A DNA stretch of 64,000 nucleotides from UHGV virus genome UHGV-0120889; one strand, written 5' to 3'. Both the position numbers and the translations under genes were made by a program. The notes beneath the pieces are model-generated. The model made no database searches. It was given only the letters and a program-made list of their open reading frames with translations, and had not been told where the DNA came from. Position 1 is the first letter of the stretch; each line of letters opens with the position of its first letter. The stretch comes from a virus. This document shows, piece by piece, positions 8,432-62,558 of the stretch.

Positions 8432-8508
8432 TGGTCTCCACGGAGTGATTCGAACACTCGACCTCCTGATCCCAAATCAGGCGCTCTACCAAGCTGAGCT
8501 ACGCGGAG
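8432..8508 (-). tRNA. tRNA-Pro (anticodon UGG)
   Basis: Hand-folded cloverleaf: acceptor CUCCGCG/CGUGGAG, D-arm GCUC..GAGC, anticodon stem CCUGA/UCAGG with loop UUUGGGA, T-arm GAGUG-UUCGAAU-CACUC, encoded CCA. Confidence 0.8.
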
Positions 8509-8519
8509 TATTTATTATT

Positions 8520-8594
8520 TGGTGGCCCTGGGTGGAATTGAACCACCGTCTGGCGATTATGAGTCGCTTGCTTGAACCTTCCAGCTACAGGGCC
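8520..8594 (-). tRNA. tRNA with anticodon CAU (Met or lysidine-modified Ile)
   Basis: Acceptor GGCCCUG/CAGGGCC, anticodon loop CUCAUAA, T-arm GGUGG-UUCAAUU-CCACC, encoded CCA; Met versus Ile2 cannot be told from sequence. Confidence 0.7.
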
Positions 8595-8595
8595 A

Positions 8596-8671
8596 TGGTG
8601 CTGATGGCAGGACTTGAACCTGCAACCTATTGATTACAAATCAATTGCACTACCAATTGTGCTACATCAGC
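8596..8671 (-). tRNA. tRNA-Thr (anticodon UGU)
   Basis: Acceptor GCUGAUG/CAUCAGC, D-arm GCAC..GUGC, anticodon stem AUUGA/UCAAU with loop UUUGUAA, T-arm GCAGG-UUCAAGU-CCUGC, encoded CCA. Confidence 0.8.
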
Positions 8672-8679
8672 AAAAAAGG

Positions 8680-8776
8680 TGCTAGGTGATGGAATCGAAC
8701 CACCTATGTATTCAACGACTACCTCGTCTATTTTCAGGATTAAAAATCCTCGCCCTTGCCAAAGGGCTTACCTAGC
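8680..8776 (-). tRNA. atypical long tRNA-like gene (about 97 nt), anticodon uncertain (candidate UUU) or pseudo-tRNA
   Basis: Perfect 7-bp acceptor GCUAGGU/ACCUAGC, D-arm GCCC-UUUGGCAA-GGGC and T-arm GGUGG-UUCGAUU-CCAUC, but about 30 extra nt between a short AGGA/UCCU stem (loop UUUUUAA) and the T-arm; no encoded CCA. Confidence 0.4.
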
Positions 8777-8874
8777 TCAGTATGTTGACCATGTTGCTAG
8801 TCGGCGATGACGACTGTAACATTTGATAATCCGGTTCTGCTTCCGGCTTTCGCTTAATTACAAGGTCAACAATA

Positions 8875-8965
8875 TGGCTGAGGGTAATGGAATCGAACCA
8901 TCATCGAGTCATCCTCAACGGGACGGTTTTCAAGACCGCTTGAGCACCATTGCTCCCTACCCTCA
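8875..8965 (-). tRNA. tRNA-Ser (anticodon UGA), long variable arm
   Basis: Acceptor UGAGGGU/ACCCUCA, anticodon stem GCGGU/ACCGU with loop CUUGAAA, long variable arm, T-loop UUCGAUU, discriminator G plus CCA. Confidence 0.7.
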
Positions 8966-9079
8966 TTTATAAACAATACTGATAATGACACTGATTTTCG
9001 AGCAGTTAGTGACTAGTATAAACGACGATAAATATCAATGCCATTATCTGTATGATTTATGCATTTAAAACTATAAATT

Positions 9080-9166
9080 TGGTGGGGAGTGGTGGAGTCG
9101 AACCACCCGAGTCGTAATGACAATAGATTTACAGTCTACACCGCTACCTCTACGGGATAACTCCCC
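9080..9166 (-). tRNA. tRNA-Tyr (anticodon GUA), long variable arm
   Basis: Acceptor GGGGAGU/ACUCCCC, anticodon stem GUAGA/UCUAU with loop CUGUAAA, T-arm GGUGG-UUCGACU-CCACC, encoded CCA. Confidence 0.75.
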
Positions 9167-9170
9167 AATT

Positions 9171-9245
9171 TGGCACCCCGTACTGGACTCGAACCAGTGT
9201 CAACGGCTTAGAAGGCCGCTGCTTTATCCACTAAGCTAACAGGGC
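9171..9245 (-). tRNA. tRNA-Arg (anticodon UCU)
   Basis: Acceptor GCCCUGU/ACGGGGU (two G.U), anticodon stem GCGGC/GCCGU with loop CUUCUAA, T-arm ACUGG-UUCGAGU-CCAGU, encoded CCA. Confidence 0.75.
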
Positions 9246-9341
9246 ACTGGGTGGCTTTCTTTTACACCTTAGCCGCCAGAAAAGGTGGGAGACCATGTTT
9301 ACAATATTACACTGTTAAGCAAAGTTTGTCAAGAAAATATT

Positions 9342-40410: not shown

Positions 40411-40940
40411 CAGGTATGCTTCTGATTAACTGGGAAGACCTCTATGGGGACAAAGACCCTGTTGCGTTTGTTGATCGTAGGTGGAGATACACTGAAGAAC
40501 AACTGGCGGCAAAAAATTTAACTGCAAAACGCAGAAAGATCATCCAGTGCAAGTACAAATACGCACAGTTTGCTGCAAAAGTGTCTCCACAAATCGAGAG
40601 CTTTGTGCTTAAATTGTATGACGAGTACCTCAAATTCAAATTGGATTTTGTGCAGGTGTACCGTGCACAGGTACGACCAGATACCAACATATGTAGATGG
40701 AAGGTTGTTTGTGACGGTAAAGATTTGCCGCTCAGCTTGACAATTGAGTGGCGTTATGGGTATCATGAGTGTGGTCTGTATGATATTTGGGATGTCATTG
40801 TAGATCCTGCTAAGCACCTGAACACAGAGGAGCTGGAATATATCAATAAGATTATTCTTGATATGTTTTTCAGCTACACCCGTGAAAACTCTGGGAAAGA
40901 ACGGGATAATTTTCTTGACACCCTCAGCGACCATTTGTAG
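40407..40940 (+). CDS. hypothetical protein
   Basis: 177 aa ORF. Confidence 0.4.
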   Translation: MTGMLLINWEDLYGDKDPVAFVDRRWRYTEEQLAAKNLTAKRRKIIQCKYKYAQFAAKVSPQIESFVLKLYDEYLKFKLDFVQVYRAQVRPDTNICRWKVVCDGKDLPLSLTIEWRYGYHECGLYDIWDVIVDPAKHLNTEELEYINKIILDMFFSYTRENSGKERDNFLDTLSDHL

Positions 40941-42121: not shown

Positions 42122-42469
42122 ATGCCAAAGATTAAATCGATATTAATGTGGGTAGCTGTTGTAGCTTTTGTAGGATACTGGACTTGGGAAACTGAATTAA
42201 AAGATATTGGATATACTAGTTTTGAGAGCAAGGCGTGCATTGGTATAACCGATGCGTTCAGGCAAAATGCTATGGATCACGAATGTGTTGATGCAGATAT
42301 AGATGAGAAACTGTCTAAGGACAAAGATTTTTACCATGGGCATGCTTTGCTTGATAGTGGTGATACTGTAGAGTTCTGGTCGTGGTTCCGTGAAGATGGA
42401 ACAATAAAAACAGCAGTAAAGATCTCTAACAAAGAGTTAATGCTGTTGCAGCAGAAGGAGGCTCAATGA
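42122..42469 (+). CDS. hypothetical protein with N-terminal signal/TM
   Basis: 115 aa; N-terminal ILMWVAVVAFVGYWTW. Confidence 0.4.
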   Translation: MPKIKSILMWVAVVAFVGYWTWETELKDIGYTSFESKACIGITDAFRQNAMDHECVDADIDEKLSKDKDFYHGHALLDSGDTVEFWSWFREDGTIKTAVKISNKELMLLQQKEAQ

Positions 42470-42753
42470 TCTGGATATCCTATGCTGATGGCACCATGCT
42501 GTATACTGCAGGTACCAGATATGAAGTTCAGGAGAACGATAAAAAATTTATCGTAAGAACATTTGACAAGGACGACAACCTTTTGCTAGAATTGACTTAC
42601 AAGGTTGGAGAGGTATCCAATATCCAATTGGATTGTGGTCATAAAGATAATCCACTCAAAAAACCTGGAATAGGCAAGGCTTCAGAAGAACGTTTGTCTC
42701 GTATTGCAGAAAGCGTTTCTACACAAAAATCTAAGAAGGGGACTAGAAAATGA
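42466..42753 (+). CDS. hypothetical protein
   Basis: 95 aa. Confidence 0.4.
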   Translation: MIWISYADGTMLYTAGTRYEVQENDKKFIVRTFDKDDNLLLELTYKVGEVSNIQLDCGHKDNPLKKPGIGKASEERLSRIAESVSTQKSKKGTRK

Positions 42754-43243: not shown

Positions 43244-43540
43244 ATGAAACTTTTTGAGTGGTTTAAAAAGTTTAAATATAAAGCTGTAGCCATCGTGCCG
43301 TGGTCAATTCAGTGGGTTGATGAAGGTGGTCTACCAATACCTGGTGACAAAGATACTGGGTACTGGATTATGATGGAGAACGGGTTTGGAAAGCGAAAGT
43401 ATACGTGCACAAACTCTACTCGATCTGCACTTAATAGAGTGCCTGGTTACAAACTTATGGTTGTGTGGAAAATGTCAGGCGTCCCTCCAGCCAATGCTCA
43501 ATTTCTTACTGACAATCCTACCACGGTAGAGGAAGATTGA
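43244..43540 (+). CDS. hypothetical protein
   Basis: 98 aa. Confidence 0.4.
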   Translation: MKLFEWFKKFKYKAVAIVPWSIQWVDEGGLPIPGDKDTGYWIMMENGFGKRKYTCTNSTRSALNRVPGYKLMVVWKMSGVPPANAQFLTDNPTTVEED

Positions 43541-43824
43541 TAATGAAAAAGATTAACAGTAGTGAAGTCGAGTTTAAACTTGTCGGAAAAGGCACTTACT
43601 GGGAAGTTCGTCAAAAGGTATATTTGTTCGGTCTTATTCCTTACTGGTCTAAATTCTACTGGGGAGCTAACGAGTGGGGAAGATACGCCACCAAATCAAT
43701 GGCACTTATTGGTATAGCAGAGTACATTGCAGCCAGAGATAGGGTTGGAGACACTTATTACTATACTGCGGACGATATTCGTAACAGTGTTTACGTCCCA
43801 CAACCACCTGATAGAGACCGTTGA
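43537..43824 (+). CDS. hypothetical protein
   Basis: 95 aa. Confidence 0.4.
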   Translation: MIMKKINSSEVEFKLVGKGTYWEVRQKVYLFGLIPYWSKFYWGANEWGRYATKSMALIGIAEYIAARDRVGDTYYYTADDIRNSVYVPQPPDRDR

Positions 43825-44047
43825 TGAAAGTTAAAGTTTTAGATTCAAGCTTCTATATTGGTCAGGAGCCCTTAGTGGGGAAGTGTTTACTGCTGTCCCT
43901 AACGAAGATTACCCCGACCTTTTAAAAATAAAAGGAGCAGACCTGATCACCGCTGGTGCACCTGAATATTATTTCGGGGAAGAGTCCTATTATACCTTTG
44001 GGGTAGGGTCAGATGCAGATATTGTAGAGCTGTGATGGGTAACCGTT

Positions 44048-44446
44048 GTGAAAAATAAACTGTTCAAAGTTACAATGAAAATTCGCGGAGCTTGGAGCGT
44101 AAAGCAAGGGCGTATTCCAGAATTTGAGAAAGACTTCTACGTAGTCTCCACCTCGGAGGAGGCTGCATGCTGGCAAGCTGGCTATGCCTATGCAAGAACC
44201 TGGTACGAAGGATACCAGACTGGGGGCTATGACGGAGAAATTATCAGCAAGGGTGTAGAAGAAATTAATGTGTTGACAAGTGAAAAAGTTTTTGTTATAG
44301 TGCATCCAGATTCCAGAGTGAAGCATTACTGGAATGCCAGAACAAAAACTTGGACACCGTTTGCAGATTCTGCTACGCCACTTTTAAACCAGAAAGCTCT
44401 TGACTCTGCCCCAAGTTATGGGGTTGTTGAAGAAAAGCTAAACTGA
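44048..44446 (+). CDS. hypothetical protein, paralogue of 46253-46648
   Basis: Shares FV(I/M).HP.S...YW and (T/E)WTP with 46253-46648. Confidence 0.45.
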   Translation: MKNKLFKVTMKIRGAWSVKQGRIPEFEKDFYVVSTSEEAACWQAGYAYARTWYEGYQTGGYDGEIISKGVEEINVLTSEKVFVIVHPDSRVKHYWNARTKTWTPFADSATPLLNQKALDSAPSYGVVEEKLN

Positions 44447-44463
44447 AACAGTGAGGTGCCACT

Positions 44464-44754
44464 ATGATGGATTTAGTTCTGAATATTGATAACGCAGGAG
44501 AGCTTAAAGACGATGGTGTAACAAGCATGGACAAACCCTGCTCTGCCGAGGTTGACTCAAAATGGACCTACAAGTTTGACGGAGAGATCTTCGCAAATGA
44601 TGAGAAGGTTGTAGATGCTGCAGCCATTTTGAACGCTTTAGGGTACGACCCTGTGAATTCTTTGATCAAGGATCCTGTTGAGTTTGCAGAGTATGTTCGA
44701 AAAATGGCAGATCTTGCTGTGGATATTTTAAAAACTATCGATAACAAGCTGTAA
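44464..44754 (+). CDS. hypothetical protein
   Basis: 96 aa acidic. Confidence 0.4.
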   Translation: MMDLVLNIDNAGELKDDGVTSMDKPCSAEVDSKWTYKFDGEIFANDEKVVDAAAILNALGYDPVNSLIKDPVEFAEYVRKMADLAVDILKTIDNKL

Positions 44755-44760
44755 AAACTG

Positions 44761-44789
44761 TTGACACAACGCTTCAGATTTAGTATCAT
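44761..44789 (+). promoter_or_regulatory. sigma70-like promoter (TTGACA-N17-TATCAT) upstream of HPF-like gene
   Basis: TTGACA at 44761-44766, TATCAT at 44784-44789; followed by leader hairpin AGAGGG-TTTGGTT-CCCTCT plus TCTTT (44799-44822). Confidence 0.55.
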
Positions 44790-44836
44790 TGTTTTCAAAG
44801 AGGGTTTGGTTCCCTCTTCTTTAAAAGGAACACGTT

Positions 44837-45154
44837 ATGCAAATTGAAATCACTGGCAACGTAGAAATCACTGAAGGTATGGTGTCTTTCATTTCCCACA
44901 AAATGTCTAAGCTGGAGCGTTTGCACCCCTCTGCCAACTATGCACGTGTGAGTGTAAAAGTTGAAAATGATCACCAGGAAGTTATGGCGTTCATTTTTGA
45001 CAATTCCGGAAAAGAAGTTATTGCCAAAGCTAAAGGTAGCGATGCTTACGAGGCAACTGACCGTATGGTAGATGTTGCAGCACGTCAGCTGGCTAAATGT
45101 GGTGGAAAGAAAGGTAAGGGGAAAGGCAAAGTAAAGATTGACTTTGTAGAATGA
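44837..45154 (+). CDS. hpf: ribosome hibernation promoting factor homologue (HPF/YfiA/RaiA family)
   Basis: MQIEITGNVEITEGM...KLER...VSVKVEN...AKGSDAYEATDRMVDVAARQLAK tracks E. coli HPF (MQLNITGNNVEITEAL...KLEQ...LKVEK...AEGQDMYAAIDGLIDKLARQLTK) as recalled; Lys/Gly-rich tail. Confidence 0.7.
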   Translation: MQIEITGNVEITEGMVSFISHKMSKLERLHPSANYARVSVKVENDHQEVMAFIFDNSGKEVIAKAKGSDAYEATDRMVDVAARQLAKCGGKKGKGKGKVKIDFVE

Positions 45155-45291
45155 GGTGCTACAATGAGCGTGATTAAGAAATTAGTCCCAAATGTAGAGA
45201 TTGCATGCTTTGAAATTATGTTTGCAATCGCAGTTGTAGTTAATGTGTTAGGTTACGGCTATTAATATCAAATAATTGAGGAGACCTCTAA

Positions 45292-45561
45292 ATGAAAATT
45301 AAATTATTCAAAACTGAGCTGGCAGACAAAAACTGTGGACTGGTTGAAGGCATGATTGTTGAAGCACAACCAGTGGACTATATGAAGGTGGTTCGTGATG
45401 CCCTGGGTGAAGGTTTTGATCTGATGGAGCCAGCTCTGCGAGAAGATGTTATCGAGATGGCTAAAAAGCACACACCTGAGGGTTTGGTGGTGTTTGTTGC
45501 ACCTGGTAATGGAGAAGAGTTGATTGTAACTCCTGATGTGTATGAGATTGTAGAGGAATAA
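45292..45561 (+). CDS. hypothetical small acidic protein (MKIKL..., C-terminus YEIVEE)
   Basis: 89 aa; family member. Confidence 0.4.
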   Translation: MKIKLFKTELADKNCGLVEGMIVEAQPVDYMKVVRDALGEGFDLMEPALREDVIEMAKKHTPEGLVVFVAPGNGEELIVTPDVYEIVEE

Positions 45562-45652
45562 TCCTGCTTGGATTAGCATACTTCCTCGCTAAGGAAGATT
45601 TGTAATTATTTGTGGGAAAGGAATCCCAATCTCTTACCAGAGGTGATACTAT

Positions 45653-45916
45653 ATGATTGTTTATTTTAAAACTTCAGGTGGATACCCTGATTCTCAAAGC
45701 TTGATCGGAAAAACGTGCACAGCATACTCACCTCTTGATGAGGAGGTAAGTGATATTCTACGAAATATGTATCGGATTGACCCCCAAGAAGCTTTTGATC
45801 AAAACCTTGTATTTGTCAAGGGCTCAGACATGAAGTCTTTGGGAGCATTCCCTGAAGCAGATGATGATGCCGTTTATTCGTTCATGACTCCTTTTGAAGC
45901 TATGGTTGTTGGGTGA
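45653..45916 (+). CDS. hypothetical small acidic protein
   Basis: 87 aa. Confidence 0.4.
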   Translation: MIVYFKTSGGYPDSQSLIGKTCTAYSPLDEEVSDILRNMYRIDPQEAFDQNLVFVKGSDMKSLGAFPEADDDAVYSFMTPFEAMVVG

Positions 45917-45920
45917 TAAT

Positions 45921-46253
45921 ATGAAAGTACGCTTTATTGGTGAAACAATTCCTGTGCATCTCCGGTCTCCTGAGGATTCTGCAGATCTTGCATCTCAAAA
46001 GGCGAGAGGTTATGATAAGAAAGTAACCTCAACTGATGTAGTGCTTGAGGCTACTAGTCTACCTGACCCTGCTGCATTCTTTAATCATTATGGGTACTAT
46101 TTCAGCAATCTGATGAATATCGGTGAGCTTGTGTTTATTAGTGGTGGAGAGATTGTTAGCAAGCTTGGCGGCGATCCGGATGTCTTTCATGAAACCTGTC
46201 CTTTTGCATTTGTGGTAGGTTCAGATGTGGAAGTTATTGAGGAGGTGCGGTAA
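45921..46253 (+). CDS. hypothetical small acidic protein (C-terminus VEVIEEVR)
   Basis: Trimmed to ATG 45921 (MKVRFIGE...). Confidence 0.4.
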   Translation: MKVRFIGETIPVHLRSPEDSADLASQKARGYDKKVTSTDVVLEATSLPDPAAFFNHYGYYFSNLMNIGELVFISGGEIVSKLGGDPDVFHETCPFAFVVGSDVEVIEEVR

Positions 46254-46648
46254 TGGTAAGCCTATACCGTGTTGAGTATAGCTCAGATACTGTATACAAC
46301 GTAAGAAGCAAAGATCGCAGCGACAGAGTGCAAGAAATGTATGTTCTTGCCGACAGTCCGTTATCTGCAGCGTTCAAGGCAGGGGCTCTTGCATCTCGTT
46401 GGAAATTTGAAGGCGGATCTTTCTATGAAGAAACCCTTGAAGATTCTGTTGTTATTTCTTCTGTAGAGGTTTCAGATGACTACGAAGGGAAAAAGTTCGT
46501 AATGCGGCACCCACACAGCAACATTGCGTACTACTGGGATGTTCTGAACAACGAGTGGACCCCAGATCTTCAGAAGGCTACTGTGCTAACACCGTTTTTG
46601 GCAGATAAGTTCCCACCAGAAGGTAATTTATCCGCACTGTTTCAGTAA
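46253..46648 (+). CDS. hypothetical protein, paralogue of 44048-44446
   Basis: 131 aa; KKFVMRHPHSNIAYYWDVLNNEWTP versus KVFVIVHPDSRVKHYWNARTKTWTP. Confidence 0.45.
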   Translation: MVSLYRVEYSSDTVYNVRSKDRSDRVQEMYVLADSPLSAAFKAGALASRWKFEGGSFYEETLEDSVVISSVEVSDDYEGKKFVMRHPHSNIAYYWDVLNNEWTPDLQKATVLTPFLADKFPPEGNLSALFQ

Positions 46649-46724: not shown

Positions 46725-46985
46725 TTGATGAAGATTAAATTGAAAAACCTTGAAACGGCAGAGATTCAGGACGGTGTTGATTTCCGTTCTAAAGATGGTG
46801 ACATCTTAGAGGTAAATATTCCAACCTACGAGCTGATTAAAGGTTTTGGCAACGTTCCGGAAGAGGATATTACAGAAATTCTTATGATGTTGATTCTTGA
46901 CGGAACTGTGTTTGTAGGTGAAGGTGAGAACGCTATTGCAATCCCAGGCCATTTTTATGAAGTAGTTGACGAAGAGGTGCTGTAA
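46725..46985 (+). CDS. hypothetical small acidic protein (MMKIKL..., C-terminus YEVVDEEVL)
   Basis: 86 aa; preceded by TTGACA 46667-46672 and AATAAT -10. Confidence 0.4.
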   Translation: MMKIKLKNLETAEIQDGVDFRSKDGDILEVNIPTYELIKGFGNVPEEDITEILMMLILDGTVFVGEGENAIAIPGHFYEVVDEEVL

Positions 46986-47336
46986 ATGAAAGTAGAAATT
47001 ACTGGTTTTGATGTTAATGTGGTTCCGGAAGATATTTTAGCTAAACTTCCGGAAGGTTTTGGTAACGGTGTTGTGGTGGATGCTGTTCCTCCTACTAAAG
47101 ACATTCTGCTGCAGTATGGTGTAGCAGAGGAAGATGTCGATAAAGTTCTTACAATGATGGCAATCGATCGTGTTGTCGTTGTTAAAGGTCTCGATAATTT
47201 TGAGAGTGATCCACTGATTATTCGTGGAGATGACTACAAAATCATCGATAATGAAGGCCAAGAGTTCTATGAGCCTTGTGCAGAAGATATTCTTAACTTA
47301 TTACTGGAAGCAGGCACCGAAGAGGAGGACGAATAA
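46986..47336 (+). CDS. hypothetical small acidic protein (MKVEITG...)
   Basis: 116 aa; N-terminus resembles the HPF-like ORF. Confidence 0.4.
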   Translation: MKVEITGFDVNVVPEDILAKLPEGFGNGVVVDAVPPTKDILLQYGVAEEDVDKVLTMMAIDRVVVVKGLDNFESDPLIIRGDDYKIIDNEGQEFYEPCAEDILNLLLEAGTEEEDE

Positions 47337-47665
47337 TGAAGATTGACCCGTTACTGAAGGCTCGTGCAGAAAAAGCGTACACCATTAAGTTGACCAACTT
47401 GGTTCCTACTTGTCATCCGGATGTAGGTTGGCCCGAAGGTTTGGTGGAGGGAACTGTAACAGCTGCATACCTTCCTAACATCAAATACCTCATGGAAATC
47501 TTGGAGCTGGATGAGGAAACGGCAGAAGAGTTCCAGTTGGACATGAAACAAAGTGGGACTCTGGTTATTCACGGGTGGTACAATACTAAAGATGTAGAAG
47601 ACCCTCTGGTAACTTCTAATCTGGCATATGAAATCTTAGGGCCTTTGAACCTGGAGGAAGACTAA
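47336..47665 (+). CDS. hypothetical small acidic protein (C-terminus YEILGPLNLEED)
   Basis: 109 aa. Confidence 0.4.
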   Translation: MKIDPLLKARAEKAYTIKLTNLVPTCHPDVGWPEGLVEGTVTAAYLPNIKYLMEILELDEETAEEFQLDMKQSGTLVIHGWYNTKDVEDPLVTSNLAYEILGPLNLEED

Positions 47666-47952
47666 TGAAAGATCTGGTTAAGATTAAGATTAAAGATACC
47701 AATGGAGAACTCAGCCATTTTGGAATTAATGATGGTGACGAGCTGATCGCACACCTGCCTACCAAGGAGGTTGTAAGCAAAGCAGTTGCCGGAGAAGAAG
47801 CTGCAATGCAGGCTGCAGGTGTGGATGAAAACTATGTAGCTATGTGCATGTGCCGAGATCAGGTTGTTCTGTATAAAGCGTATCGACCAAACGGAGCCAC
47901 GGAGTGGCTTGTATTCCGACCCGAAGGATATGAAATCTTAGAGGCACTATGA
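47665..47952 (+). CDS. hypothetical small acidic protein (C-terminus EGYEILEAL)
   Basis: 95 aa. Confidence 0.4.
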   Translation: MKDLVKIKIKDTNGELSHFGINDGDELIAHLPTKEVVSKAVAGEEAAMQAAGVDENYVAMCMCRDQVVLYKAYRPNGATEWLVFRPEGYEILEAL

Positions 47953-62476: not shown

Positions 62477-62558
62477 GATCTTTTTCCTTTGTGCTGGCGG
62501 GAAACATTCCCGCCTTTTGTGTCTAGTTTACTTAAATTTTGCAGCGTGTCAATGATTT

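What the first reader, a model, noticed from the sequence alone, without database searches (positions are those of the whole stretch)
44761..45154. Phage-encoded ribosome hibernation promoting factor (HPF/YfiA) homologue with its own promoter and a terminator-like leader hairpin
Seen: the 105-aa ORF 44837-45154 follows the bacterial HPF/RaiA sequence closely by motif (MQIEITGNVEITEGM, KLER, VSVKVEN, GSDAYEATD, ARQLAK) and ends in a Lys/Gly-rich tail. A consensus TTGACA-N17-TATCAT promoter sits at 44761-44789, and between it and the start codon is a hairpin plus U-run (44799-44822) that looks like an intrinsic terminator placed in the leader. Established: HPF dimerises or inactivates ribosomes. 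Inference: the phage may modulate host translation, and the leader hairpin may be an attenuator or RNA-stability element.
Basis: partly seen in the sequence, partly recalled or inferred. Interest (0 to 1): 0.8.

Follow-up and report, generated by a model that had tools for sequence, protein, structure and literature searches.

The report
Known rV5-phage ribosome hibernation-factor homologue
This is the already published hibernation-factor-like gene (ORF144) of rV5-type E. coli phages with its already annotated promoter; the homology is real, the function is still unproven, and the "terminator" in its leader is only a small, poorly conserved hairpin at the 5' end of the transcript.

Summary
The window is an rV5-like Vequintavirus (98% identical to Escherichia phage V5). 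ORF 44837-45154 is rV5 ORF144 (ABI79209), annotated as "sigma 54 modulation factor"/HPF/RaiA in more than 100 GenBank records. The promoter at 44761-44789 is the published P144 (Kropinski 2013). Mizuno et al. 2019 analysed this protein, expressed it in E. coli, and found no stable ribosome association and no change in 100S.

[quoted passage not shown] The protein fails both the short-HPF and the RaiA equivalog cut-offs. It has no close bacterial relative among 1.84 billion representatives (45% identity at most). It keeps only about half of the described ribosome-contact residues and carries a longer basic disordered tail. It is under purifying selection across two phage lineages.

The leader hairpin (44798-44818, -9.9 kcal/mol) is real but not exceptional. 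No terminator scan calls it, it shows uncompensated changes in close relatives, and a 64%-identical orthologue lacks it. It looks like a promoter-proximal 5' stem-loop of the kind seen after five other early promoters in this window, which recalls the PeSL cassettes of T4-like phages.

Verdict: correct, ordinary, already known.

The parts
44761..44789 (+). Sigma-70-type promoter P144 (TTGACA-N17-TATCAT), preceded by the A-rich stretch TGTAAAAACTG that contains the stop codon of the upstream ORF (44752-44754)
   Evidence: 11/12 match. (GenBank regulatory feature 'P144' in DQ832317). (Kropinski 2013, Table S4). (hexamers invariant in 10 genomes; -35 block conserved in divergent locus L003). (17 such sites against 2.0 expected).
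44798..44818 (+). Promoter-proximal stem-loop: AAGAGGG (44798-44804), loop TTTGGTT, CCCTCTT (44812-44818), followed by CTTTAAAA. It begins 9 nt after the -10 hexamer, so about +2 of the predicted transcript
   Evidence: dG -9.9, z -0.86. (5'-arm G->A uncompensated in V18/Murica/A6-1/Mangalyan, dG -7.0 and -5.3; T-run TTCTTT->TTCCTT in the V18 group). (absent in L003). (not called as a terminator).
44825..44829 (+). Shine-Dalgarno-like AAGGA, 7 nt before the ATG; unpaired in the predicted leader fold
   Evidence: Ribosome_binding_site features at the same place in phages Murica and Mangalyan.
44837..45154 (+). CDS of the HPF/YfiA-family protein (105 aa) = rV5 ORF144. The folded core is residues 1-89. 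Residues 90-105 (about 45104-45151) form a disordered Lys/Gly-rich tail
45164..45265 (+). Downstream 33-aa ORF (rV5 ORF145, annotated as a 1-TMD membrane protein), 9 nt after the HPF stop and probably co-transcribed. It is absent from the divergent orthologous locus L003
   Evidence: (rV5 annotation).

Best explanation
The region is the previously described HPF homologue of rV5-like Vequintavirus phages (rV5 ORF144), with its published sigma-70 promoter P144.

Shown here:
- The protein is a genuine member of the HPF/YfiA (Ribosomal_S30AE) superfamily by sequence and fold.
- It is closer to short HPF than to RaiA, but it is neither equivalog.
- It forms an isolated phage clade with no close bacterial donor.
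- It is kept under purifying selection.
- It retains K25, R28, R83, K87 and K91 of the described rRNA-contact set. It has replaced the uS9-contact pair (H55/E60 -> F54/K59), T53 (-> F52), K80 (-> V) and K89 (-> G).
- It carries a basic disordered tail twice as long as that of E. coli HPF.

Inferred:
- It is made early by host RNA polymerase from P144, and also by read-through from upstream genes.
- It docks, probably more weakly than the host factor, in the decoding-centre pocket of vacant 30S/70S ribosomes.
- There it competes with or substitutes for the host hibernation factors RMF, HPF and RaiA. This would set the hibernation state of idle ribosomes during infection rather than promote 100S dimers.

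The leader hairpin is a promoter-proximal stem-loop at the very 5' end of the P144 transcript. It is one of several promoter-plus-stem-loop cassettes in this phage and is analogous to the PeSLs of T4-like phages. Most likely it acts as a modest 5'-end stabiliser of the mRNA and/or a weak brake on read-through from upstream. It is not a dedicated attenuator of hpf.
For: Identity and prior knowledge:
- 98% nucleotide identity to phage V5/rV5, with ORF144 and promoter P144 annotated.
- P144 and the ORF144 S30AE assignment appear in Kropinski 2013.
- HPF of rV5 and five relatives was listed, analysed and expressed in Mizuno 2019.

Family and fold:
- PF02482 scores 48.3 bits against a cut-off of 23.7.
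- TIGR00741 scores 45.9 against 40.9.
- The best solved relative is E. coli HPF, E = 5e-12.
- The AF2 model has pLDDT 85 and elements E-H-E-E-E-H.
- Foldseek gives TM 0.93 and rmsd 1.1 A to V. cholerae HPF, and rmsd 1.2 A to ribosome-bound E. coli HPF 6h4n_x.

Isolation and selection:
- An exhaustive phmmer search of 1.84e9 representatives gives only one relative at 65% identity, which is another phage. The rest are at 45% or less.
- Identity to enterobacterial HPFs is 36-41%, while these are 76-100% identical to E. coli HPF.
- For the core, pN is 0.22 and pS is 0.79 (saturated) against the L003 orthologue.

Contact residues and tail:
- The contact-residue list comes and was mapped through alignments A1 and A3.
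- The tail is 18 aa with net charge +4, against 8 aa and +2 in E. coli HPF. It is also long and basic in the divergent orthologue.
- The tail is disordered in the model.

Promoter.

Hairpin class:
- Stem-loops start 9-11 nt after the -10 hexamer at the promoters at 62552, 61871, 60007, 56177 and 54346 on the minus strand, all without U-runs.
- The 34 nt after promoter-like sites fold somewhat better than background (Mann-Whitney p = 0.027).
- PeSL architecture and variants, including stem-loops downstream of -10 and an A3-4G3-loop-C3T3-4 consensus, are described.
Against: Ribosome binding:
- No ribosome binding was detected for this protein when expressed in E. coli, and 100S levels did not change.
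- About half of the described contact residues are changed, so binding at the canonical site is an inference, not a finding.
- The benefit to the phage is unknown.
- The tail is frameshift-truncated in some isolates (Murica, APCEc02). This argues against an essential, sequence-specific role for the tail.

Hairpin:
- Its energy is not beyond shuffles.
- Most early promoters in the window have no such hairpin.
- The transcription start site has not been mapped.
- The enrichment statistic is weak.
- Published PeSLs mostly place the stem-loop upstream of or within the promoter.
Confidence: 0.55

Rival explanations
1. Classical hibernation or shut-off factor. The phage protein works like host short HPF: it binds the decoding centre tightly, promotes or stabilises 100S dimers with RMF, and thereby shuts down host translation or parks ribosomes.
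For: Best HMM and PDB matches are short HPFs, not RaiA. The predicted fold superposes on ribosome-bound E. coli HPF at 1.2 A. R83, K87, K91 and K25 are retained.
Against: Expression in E. coli gave no discernible effect on 100S, and the protein was absent from purified 70S/100S. It fails the short-HPF equivalog cut-off, 55.8 against 125 bits. The uS9-contact pair, K80 and K89 are replaced. An HPF-type block of the A and P sites would hit phage and host mRNAs alike (inference).
Confidence: 0.15
2. Neofunctionalised HPF fold. The protein no longer acts on the ribosome's decoding centre but uses the small alpha/beta RNA-binding fold and basic tail on another target, such as another RNA, a host defence component or a different ribosomal site.
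For: No ribosome co-purification. About half of the described contact residues are changed in both phage lineages. The clade is isolated in sequence space. It has its own PHROG 12469, annotated 'unknown function' and distinct from the phage S30AE family PHROG 8990. Strong purifying selection shows that it does something.
Against: The most conserved family signature is kept: the alpha-2 R83-Q-L-x-K87 track, K91 and K25. Core charge is similar to E. coli HPF. The negative binding result has acknowledged technical caveats. No alternative target is suggested by any search.
Confidence: 0.2
3. The leader hairpin is an intrinsic terminator or attenuator that limits hpf expression.
For: If the stem is trimmed to GAGGG/CCCTC, it is followed by TTCTTTAA, which is 5 T in 8. 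It lies 44 nt after the upstream stop codon, where a terminator for the upstream genes would sit. PeSL stem-loops of T4-like phages were shown to terminate transcription.
Against: It is not reported by the terminator scan. It is not in the rV5 ARNold/MFOLD list, whose 20 terminators have dG of -11.5 to -24.7 and real T-runs. The G->A change in the 5' arm is uncompensated in 4 of 10 genomes, and the T-run is further eroded in the V18 group. The hairpin is absent from the orthologous leader in L003. There is no alternative antiterminator structure and no Rfam match.
Confidence: 0.12
4. The hairpin is a by-product without function: a chance inverted repeat created by an indel that moved the ancestral SD (GAGGG) away from the start codon.
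For: z = -0.86 against shuffles. In L003 the same GAGGG sits 8 nt before the ATG as the SD, and the roughly 30 nt that supply the 3' arm and the new SD are missing. The stem is degraded in several close relatives.
Against: The exact motif GAGGG-N4-10-CCCTC occurs twice in the window against 0.14 expected. The 3' arm is invariant in 10 genomes. Comparable hairpins occur in the same register after five other early promoters.
Confidence: 0.3

Closest known systems
rV5 ORF144 / ABI79209 ('sigma 54 modulation factor'; HPF of Escherichia phage V5) and its promoter P144
   Same: The same gene: 99% amino-acid identity (G104V), the same position, and a promoter with identical hexamers and spacer.
   Different: Nothing of substance. 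The window is another isolate of the same genus.
E. coli short HPF (YhbH, 95 aa; PDB 2rql, 6h4n)
   Same: Same fold, with rmsd 1.2 A to the ribosome-bound form. Shared features are the N-terminus MQ(L/I)xITG, K25/K26, the D-x-Y motif, R83-Q-L-x-K87 and K91.
   Different: Only about 40% identity. It fails the PRK10470 cut-off. R17, T53, H55, E60, K80 and K89 are replaced. There is a one-residue deletion at N8 and a one-residue-longer beta3-beta4 turn. The tail is 18 aa with net +4 against 8 aa with +2. The published test found no 100S effect.
E. coli RaiA/YfiA (protein Y, 113 aa)
   Same: Same fold and the same binding pocket in the family. Both have a tail longer than HPF's, which in YfiA runs towards the RMF site. 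NCBI's pipeline names the phage protein RaiA.
   Different: Only 23% identity and 17.7 bits against a cut-off of 158. The YfiA tail is net acidic (-3) and the phage tail is basic (+4).
Other phage-encoded S30AE proteins (Cronobacter phage GAP32; PHROG 8990)
   Same: Phage-borne HPF-family genes in large myoviruses.
   Different: A separate, much more distant lineage. The phage protein scores only E = 1.4e-6 on PHROG 8990. GAP32 was not found by tblastn at E = 1e-3.
PeSL (promoter-early stem-loop) cassettes of T4-like phages (Arbiol 2010; Comeau 2014)
   Same: The composite order is upstream stop codon in an A/T-rich stretch, then a strong sigma-70 promoter, a stem-loop, the SD and the ATG, in regions full of small ORFans. 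One described subclass places the stem-loop downstream of -10. One consensus is A3-4G3-loop-C3T3-4, which resembles AAAGAGGG-loop-CCCTCTTCTTT.
   Different: This is a different phage family. Most PeSL stem-loops lie upstream of or inside the promoter. Neither terminator activity nor recombination between cassettes was tested here.
5'-terminal stem-loop mRNA stabilisers
   Same: A hairpin within 1-2 nt of the predicted 5' end, with an unpaired SD downstream.
   Different: The TSS is not mapped. The stem is only 7 bp and is not conserved.

Membership tests
HPF/YfiA superfamily (Pfam PF02482 Ribosomal_S30AE; NCBIfam TIGR00741) | Score above the curated profile cut-offs | tested here: met
   PF02482 scores 48.3 bits against 23.7. 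TIGR00741 scores 45.9 against 40.9.
HPF/YfiA superfamily (Pfam PF02482 Ribosomal_S30AE; NCBIfam TIGR00741) | [quoted passage not shown] | tested here: met
   AF2 model with core pLDDT above 90 and elements E2-7, H13-29, E33-42, E47-55, E60-67, H70-89. The top 36 Foldseek PDB hits are all HPF/YfiA/pY, with TM up to 0.93.
HPF/YfiA superfamily (Pfam PF02482 Ribosomal_S30AE; NCBIfam TIGR00741) | Basic track on helix alpha-2 contacting 16S rRNA (K80, R83, K87, K89, K91 in E. coli numbering) | tested here: inconclusive
   R83, K87 and K91 are kept. K80 -> V and K89 -> G, with T and S in the divergent orthologue. The residue list comes; the mapping comes.
HPF/YfiA superfamily (Pfam PF02482 Ribosomal_S30AE; NCBIfam TIGR00741) | Binding to the 30S decoding-centre pocket of the ribosome | not testable with these tools
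   The published experiment found the protein in the cell extract but not in high-salt 70S/100S; the authors list caveats.
Short HPF equivalog (NCBIfam NF007780 / PRK10470; E. coli YhbH type) | Score above the equivalog cut-off | tested here: not met
   55.8 bits against a cut-off of 125.
Short HPF equivalog (NCBIfam NF007780 / PRK10470; E. coli YhbH type) | HPF-specific contacts: the H55/E60 pair to the uS9 C-terminus, and the T53/H(V)62 motif to m2G966 | tested here: not met
   F54 and K59, F52 and I62 in the window. F, K, R and M in the divergent orthologue.
Short HPF equivalog (NCBIfam NF007780 / PRK10470; E. coli YhbH type) | Promotes 100S formation together with RMF | not testable with these tools
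   Published: no discernible effect on 100S when expressed in E. coli.
RaiA/YfiA equivalog (NCBIfam NF007654 / PRK10324) | Score above the equivalog cut-off | tested here: not met
   17.7 bits against a cut-off of 158. 23% identity to E. coli YfiA.
RaiA/YfiA equivalog (NCBIfam NF007654 / PRK10324) | Extended C-terminal tail running towards the RMF site | tested here: inconclusive
   The tail is long (18 aa against 8 in HPF and 26 in YfiA) and disordered. It is basic rather than acidic, and it is unrelated in sequence.
Sigma-70 promoter | Hexamers and spacing close to consensus, more frequent than chance, and conserved | tested here: met
   11/12 match with a 17-nt spacer. 17 such sites against 2.0 +/- 1.3 expected. 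Invariant in 10 genomes, and the -35 block is kept in L003.
Sigma-70 promoter | Mapped transcription start | not testable with these tools
   No transcript data were found.
Intrinsic (Rho-independent) terminator / attenuator | G+C-rich stem-loop directly followed by a U-tract | tested here: not met
   7-bp stem with 4 G-C pairs and dG -9.9, followed by CUUUAAAA. It is not reported by the scan and is absent from the rV5 terminator list.
Intrinsic (Rho-independent) terminator / attenuator | Conservation or compensatory change of the stem in relatives | tested here: not met
   Uncompensated G->A in 4 of 10 genomes, with dG falling to -7.0 and -5.3. Absent in L003.
PeSL-like promoter/stem-loop cassette | Composite order (stop codon, A/T-rich stretch, -35, -10, stem-loop, SD, ATG), recurring in ORFan-rich regions | tested here: met
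   The order is seen at P144 and at five minus-strand promoters. The architecture is described.
PeSL-like promoter/stem-loop cassette | The stem-loop terminates upstream transcription; cassettes mediate recombinational shuffling | not tested
   This needs transcript 3'-end mapping and systematic indel-breakpoint analysis among Vequintavirus genomes.

The most novel reading that the evidence does not exclude
The Vequintavirus protein is not a hibernation factor in the host sense but an anti-hibernation or ribosome-guarding factor. It would be an HPF fold with a remodelled uS9/16S contact surface and an extended basic tail, made early in infection. It would occupy the HPF/RaiA pocket loosely and block RMF-dependent 100S formation, or block access of ribosome-directed nucleases, so that a starving or defence-arrested host cannot put its ribosomes out of the phage's reach.
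Probability: 0.2. Interest if true: 0.6.

Novelty: already known. Interest (0 to 1): 0.2.

Why it matters
Viral copies of translation-apparatus genes are of general interest, and the role of this one is still open. The one published test was negative, with acknowledged caveats. If the phage protein does control host ribosome hibernation, that would bear on how lytic phages cope with slow-growing or dormant hosts, which matters for phage therapy. As a discovery, however, nothing here is new. The gene, its family assignment and its promoter were annotated in 2006-2013 and analysed experimentally in 2019.

- The clade is isolated in sequence space, contrary to a "recent transfer" reading.
- About half of the described ribosome-contact residues are replaced, while the core stays under purifying selection.
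- The leader hairpin is not a credible attenuator.
- rV5-type phages carry promoter-plus-5'-stem-loop cassettes reminiscent of PeSLs.

Tried and rejected
- Rfam scan of 43500-46500 at E <= 1 gave no match, so there is no known leader or riboswitch family.
- An exact-pattern scan of IMG/VR for the -10-to-hairpin sequence, meant to collect more leader variants, gave no hits. Hairpin variation therefore rests on 10 GenBank genomes plus one divergent locus.
- The word-indexed protein search with the phage protein returned only 5 hits. The exhaustive search was needed to show that the clade is isolated.
- A YfiA-like C-terminal motif (phage ...KIDFVE against YfiA ...DANFVEEVEEE) was considered and rejected. 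Most isolates have DFGE, DFLD or DFWD. Two isolates have frameshifted or truncated tails. The divergent orthologue ends in KWDY.
- A second HPF gene next door was rejected. ORF 45292-45561 is labelled "sigma 54 modulation factor" in several records, but it has no Pfam hit and BLASTP against the HPF ORF gives E = 2.9.
- Later functional work on phage HPF was searched for and none was found.
- The statistic for hairpin enrichment after promoters is weak (p = 0.027). It is treated as suggestive only.

Full report
**What is there**

The window is an rV5-like Vequintavirus. Region 44000-46000 is 98% identical to Escherichia phage V5/rV5 and to more than 100 related genomes.

The ORF at 44837-45154 exists as described. 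It has 105 codons and contains all the quoted motifs. It corresponds to rV5 ORF144 (ABI79209). That gene is annotated "sigma 54 modulation factor" in the original record, and "ribosome hibernation promoting factor", "RaiA" or "S30AE" in many others.

TTGACA-N17-TATCAT at 44761-44789 is the GenBank regulatory feature "P144". It is listed in Table S4 of Kropinski et al. 2013.

The promoter is much more than chance:
- Sites matching at least 11 of 12 consensus positions number 17 in this window, against 2.0 +/- 1.3 in Markov simulations.
- Both hexamers are invariant in ten Vequintavirus genomes.
- The block AAACTGTTGACACA survives in an orthologous locus of only about 70% nucleotide identity.

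**Family membership**

- Pfam PF02482 scores 48.3 bits against a cut-off of 23.7.
- TIGR00741 (HPF/YfiA) scores 45.9 against 40.9.
- The best solved relative is E. coli HPF, E = 5e-12.
- An AlphaFold2 model from a 29-sequence alignment has mean pLDDT 85, with the core above 90. [quoted passage not shown]
- In Foldseek against the PDB, the top 36 hits are all HPF, YfiA or pY. TM is 0.93 with rmsd 1.1 A to V. cholerae HPF. The rmsd to E. coli HPF in the 100S ribosome is 1.2 A.

**What kind of member it is**

The protein is closer to short HPF than to RaiA: 55.8 against 17.7 bits on the two equivalog models. It is far below both cut-offs, which are 125 and 158.

Enterobacterial HPFs are uniformly 95 aa and 76-100% identical to E. 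coli HPF. The phage protein is 36-41% identical to them.

An exhaustive phmmer search of 1.84 billion cluster representatives found one close relative. This is P0004, 65% identical, from uncultured Vequintavirus-like contigs of up to 137 kb. Otherwise it found only ordinary HPF-family proteins at 27-45% identity with E >= 2.5e-7.

The phage clade is therefore isolated and no recent bacterial donor is visible. This qualifies the statement in Mizuno et al. that the transfer was relatively recent.

Between the window and the divergent orthologue, the core shows pN = 0.22 against a saturated pS = 0.79. The protein has thus been kept functional in phages for a long time.

Within the phage collection the gene is confined to the genus. 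There are 118 records at about 95% amino-acid identity or more, plus one bacterial record at 42%.

**Ribosome-contact residues**

A 2025 preprint on hibernating Gram-negative ribosomes lists the key HPF contacts:
- K26 and Q29 contact the C1496/G1497 phosphates.
- The H55/E60 pair contacts the uS9 C-terminus.
- T53 and H/V62 contact m2G966.
- K80, R83, K87, K89 and K91 form the basic track on helix alpha-2.

Mapped through the alignments, the phage protein has:

| E. coli HPF residue | Phage residue | Status |
|---|---|---|
| K26 | K25 | kept |
| Q29 | R28 | still basic |
| T53 | F52 | changed |
| H55 | F54 | changed |
| E60 | K59 | changed |
| H/V62 | I62 | conservative |
| K80 | V80 | lost |
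| R83 | R83 | kept |
| K87 | K87 | kept |
| K89 | G89 | lost |
| K91 | K91 | kept |

The divergent orthologue shows the same losses.

Core net charge is like that of E. coli HPF, -2 against -3. The tail is 18 residues with net +4, against 8 residues with +2. A long basic tail is also present in the divergent orthologue.

The tail's sequence is not conserved, and it is frameshift-truncated in phages Murica and APCEc02.

This partly remodelled surface fits the published experiment. rV5 HPF expressed from pBAD in E. coli was detected in crude extract but not in high-salt-purified 70S/100S. The 100S peak was unchanged. The authors name growth phase, true loss of binding, or dissociation in salt as possible reasons. 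I found no later functional study.

**The leader**

The -10 hexamer ends at 44789, so the predicted start is at about 44796-44798.

The stem AAGAGGG/CCCTCTT occupies 44798-44804 and 44812-44818, with a 7-nt loop and dG -9.9 kcal/mol. The SD AAGGA (44825-44829) stays unpaired.

The energy is unremarkable:
- z = -0.86 against dinucleotide shuffles.
- 3.2% of random 34-nt windows of this genome fold as well.

After the full stem come C, TTT and AAAA.
- The terminator scan does not report the site.
- The rV5 authors' ARNold/MFOLD list of 20 terminators has none here. Those terminators have dG of -11.5 to -24.7 and real T-runs.

Among ten close genomes the 3' arm is invariant.
- The 5' arm carries an uncompensated G->A in V18, Murica, A6-1 and Mangalyan. 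There dG falls to -7.0 and -5.3.
- The T-run becomes TTCCTT in the V18 group.
- In the divergent orthologue the promoter is followed directly by GAGGG as the SD, 8 nt before the ATG. The roughly 30 nt that provide the 3' arm and the present SD are missing.

Rfam has no match. None of this supports a dedicated attenuator.

**A class of promoter-proximal hairpins**

Five other strong early promoters in the window lie on the minus strand at 62552, 61871, 60007, 56177 and 54346. Each is followed by a G+C-rich stem-loop that starts 9-11 nt after the -10 hexamer. None of these has a U-run.

Across all promoter-like sites, the following 34 nt fold slightly better than background (p = 0.027; 19% against 8% at or below -8 kcal/mol).

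The layout is stop codon in an A-rich stretch, then -35, -10, stem-loop, SD and ATG. This is the layout of the PeSL cassettes of T4-like phages. Their stem-loops can lie downstream of the -10 hexamer. One PeSL consensus is A3-4G3-loop-C3T3-4. The stem-loops were shown to terminate upstream transcription.

I therefore read the P144 hairpin as a promoter-proximal 5' stem-loop of this general kind. Two roles are possible:
- It could be an mRNA 5'-end stabiliser. This rests on my own knowledge of 5'-terminal stem-loops and RNase E, and was not tested here.
- It could be a weak insulator against read-through.

A functionless by-product of an indel remains a serious rival.

**Mechanism, with steps marked**

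Shown:
- Family and fold membership.
- Purifying selection.
- A strong, conserved sigma-70 promoter.
- Partial loss of canonical contacts.
- A longer basic disordered tail.

Inferred:
- Early expression by host RNA polymerase.
- Loose occupation of the HPF/RaiA pocket on vacant ribosomes.
- Competition with host RMF, HPF and RaiA, rather than promotion of 100S.

Unknown: whether the protein binds ribosomes at all during infection, and what the phage gains.

**Verdict**

The finding is already known from GenBank 2006, Kropinski 2013 and Mizuno 2019. It deserves a low score as a discovery. The unresolved function leaves a modest chance of something interesting.

Noticed in passing
window 45292-45561 (+): This 89-aa ORF (rV5 ORF146) is labelled 'sigma 54 modulation factor' in several GenBank records (ECP2309, APCEc02, inoa, A6-1, ECP32). 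It has no Pfam hit and no similarity to the HPF ORF, so this is a propagated misannotation. Some records also label the true HPF gene 'ATP-dependent protease La type I'.
   Followed up: yes
window minus strand: 62552-62480, 61871-61800, 60007-59940, 56177-56110, 54346-54280: Strong sigma-70 promoters (published as rV5 P194, P192, P185, P174 and P168). Each is followed, 9-11 nt after the -10 hexamer, by a G+C-rich stem-loop without a U-run, then a CA-rich spacer, the SD and the ATG. This is a recurring promoter-plus-5'-stem-loop cassette reminiscent of T4-type PeSLs, and I found no description of it for rV5 in the papers I read.
   Followed up: partly
window 45292-45561, 46725-46985, 46986-47336, 47336-47665, 47665-47952 (+); also 44048-44446 and 46253-46648: There are arrays of paralogous small acidic ORFans around the HPF gene. 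One family starts MK(I/V)K... and ends ...YE(I/V)(V/L)(E/D), with 23-35% pairwise identity. A 131/132-aa pair is 28% identical (E = 8e-10). None has a Pfam hit.
   Followed up: partly
window 45100-45151 (tail-coding part of the HPF gene): The purine-rich, repetitive Lys/Gly-coding stretch is indel-prone. Isolates Murica and inoa (300-nt CDS) and APCEc02 (306 nt) have shortened or frameshifted CDSs; Murica and APCEc02 lose or change the distal tail. The last residues vary among DFVE, DFGE, DFLD and DFWD.
   Followed up: partly
window 8432-9245 (-): There is a cluster of seven tRNA-like genes: Pro, Met, Thr, Ser, Tyr, Arg and one 99-nt call with a four-base 'anticodon' (atcc) at 8678-8776. The last may be an intron-containing or degenerate tRNA. 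The cluster lies downstream of the promoter at 9332 (rV5 'PtRNA').
   Followed up: no
GenBank records MG0656xx (search hits for window 44000-46000): Eighteen records named 'Campylobacter phage', with host given as C. jejuni, are 97-98% identical to this E. coli rV5-like region. This suggests mislabelled or contaminating Vequintavirus genomes in that submission.
   Followed up: no
window 40737-40766, 42563-42592, 44273-44301 (+): Three further 11/12 sigma-70 consensus matches on the coding strand are not among the published rV5 promoters. At least 42563 and 44273 lie inside ORFs (42466-42753 and 44048-44446). The one at 44273 is followed by a -9.9 kcal/mol hairpin. They may be internal promoters or recombination remnants.
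   Followed up: no
L003 3312-3396 compared with window 45154-45292: The divergent orthologous locus lacks the 33-aa membrane ORF (rV5 ORF145) between the HPF gene and the next gene. In its place it has a TTTACA...TACACT promoter-like site overlapping an inverted repeat (TTCTGTAGTACACTACAGAGAA). This is another promoter/stem-loop combination at an indel site.
   Followed up: no
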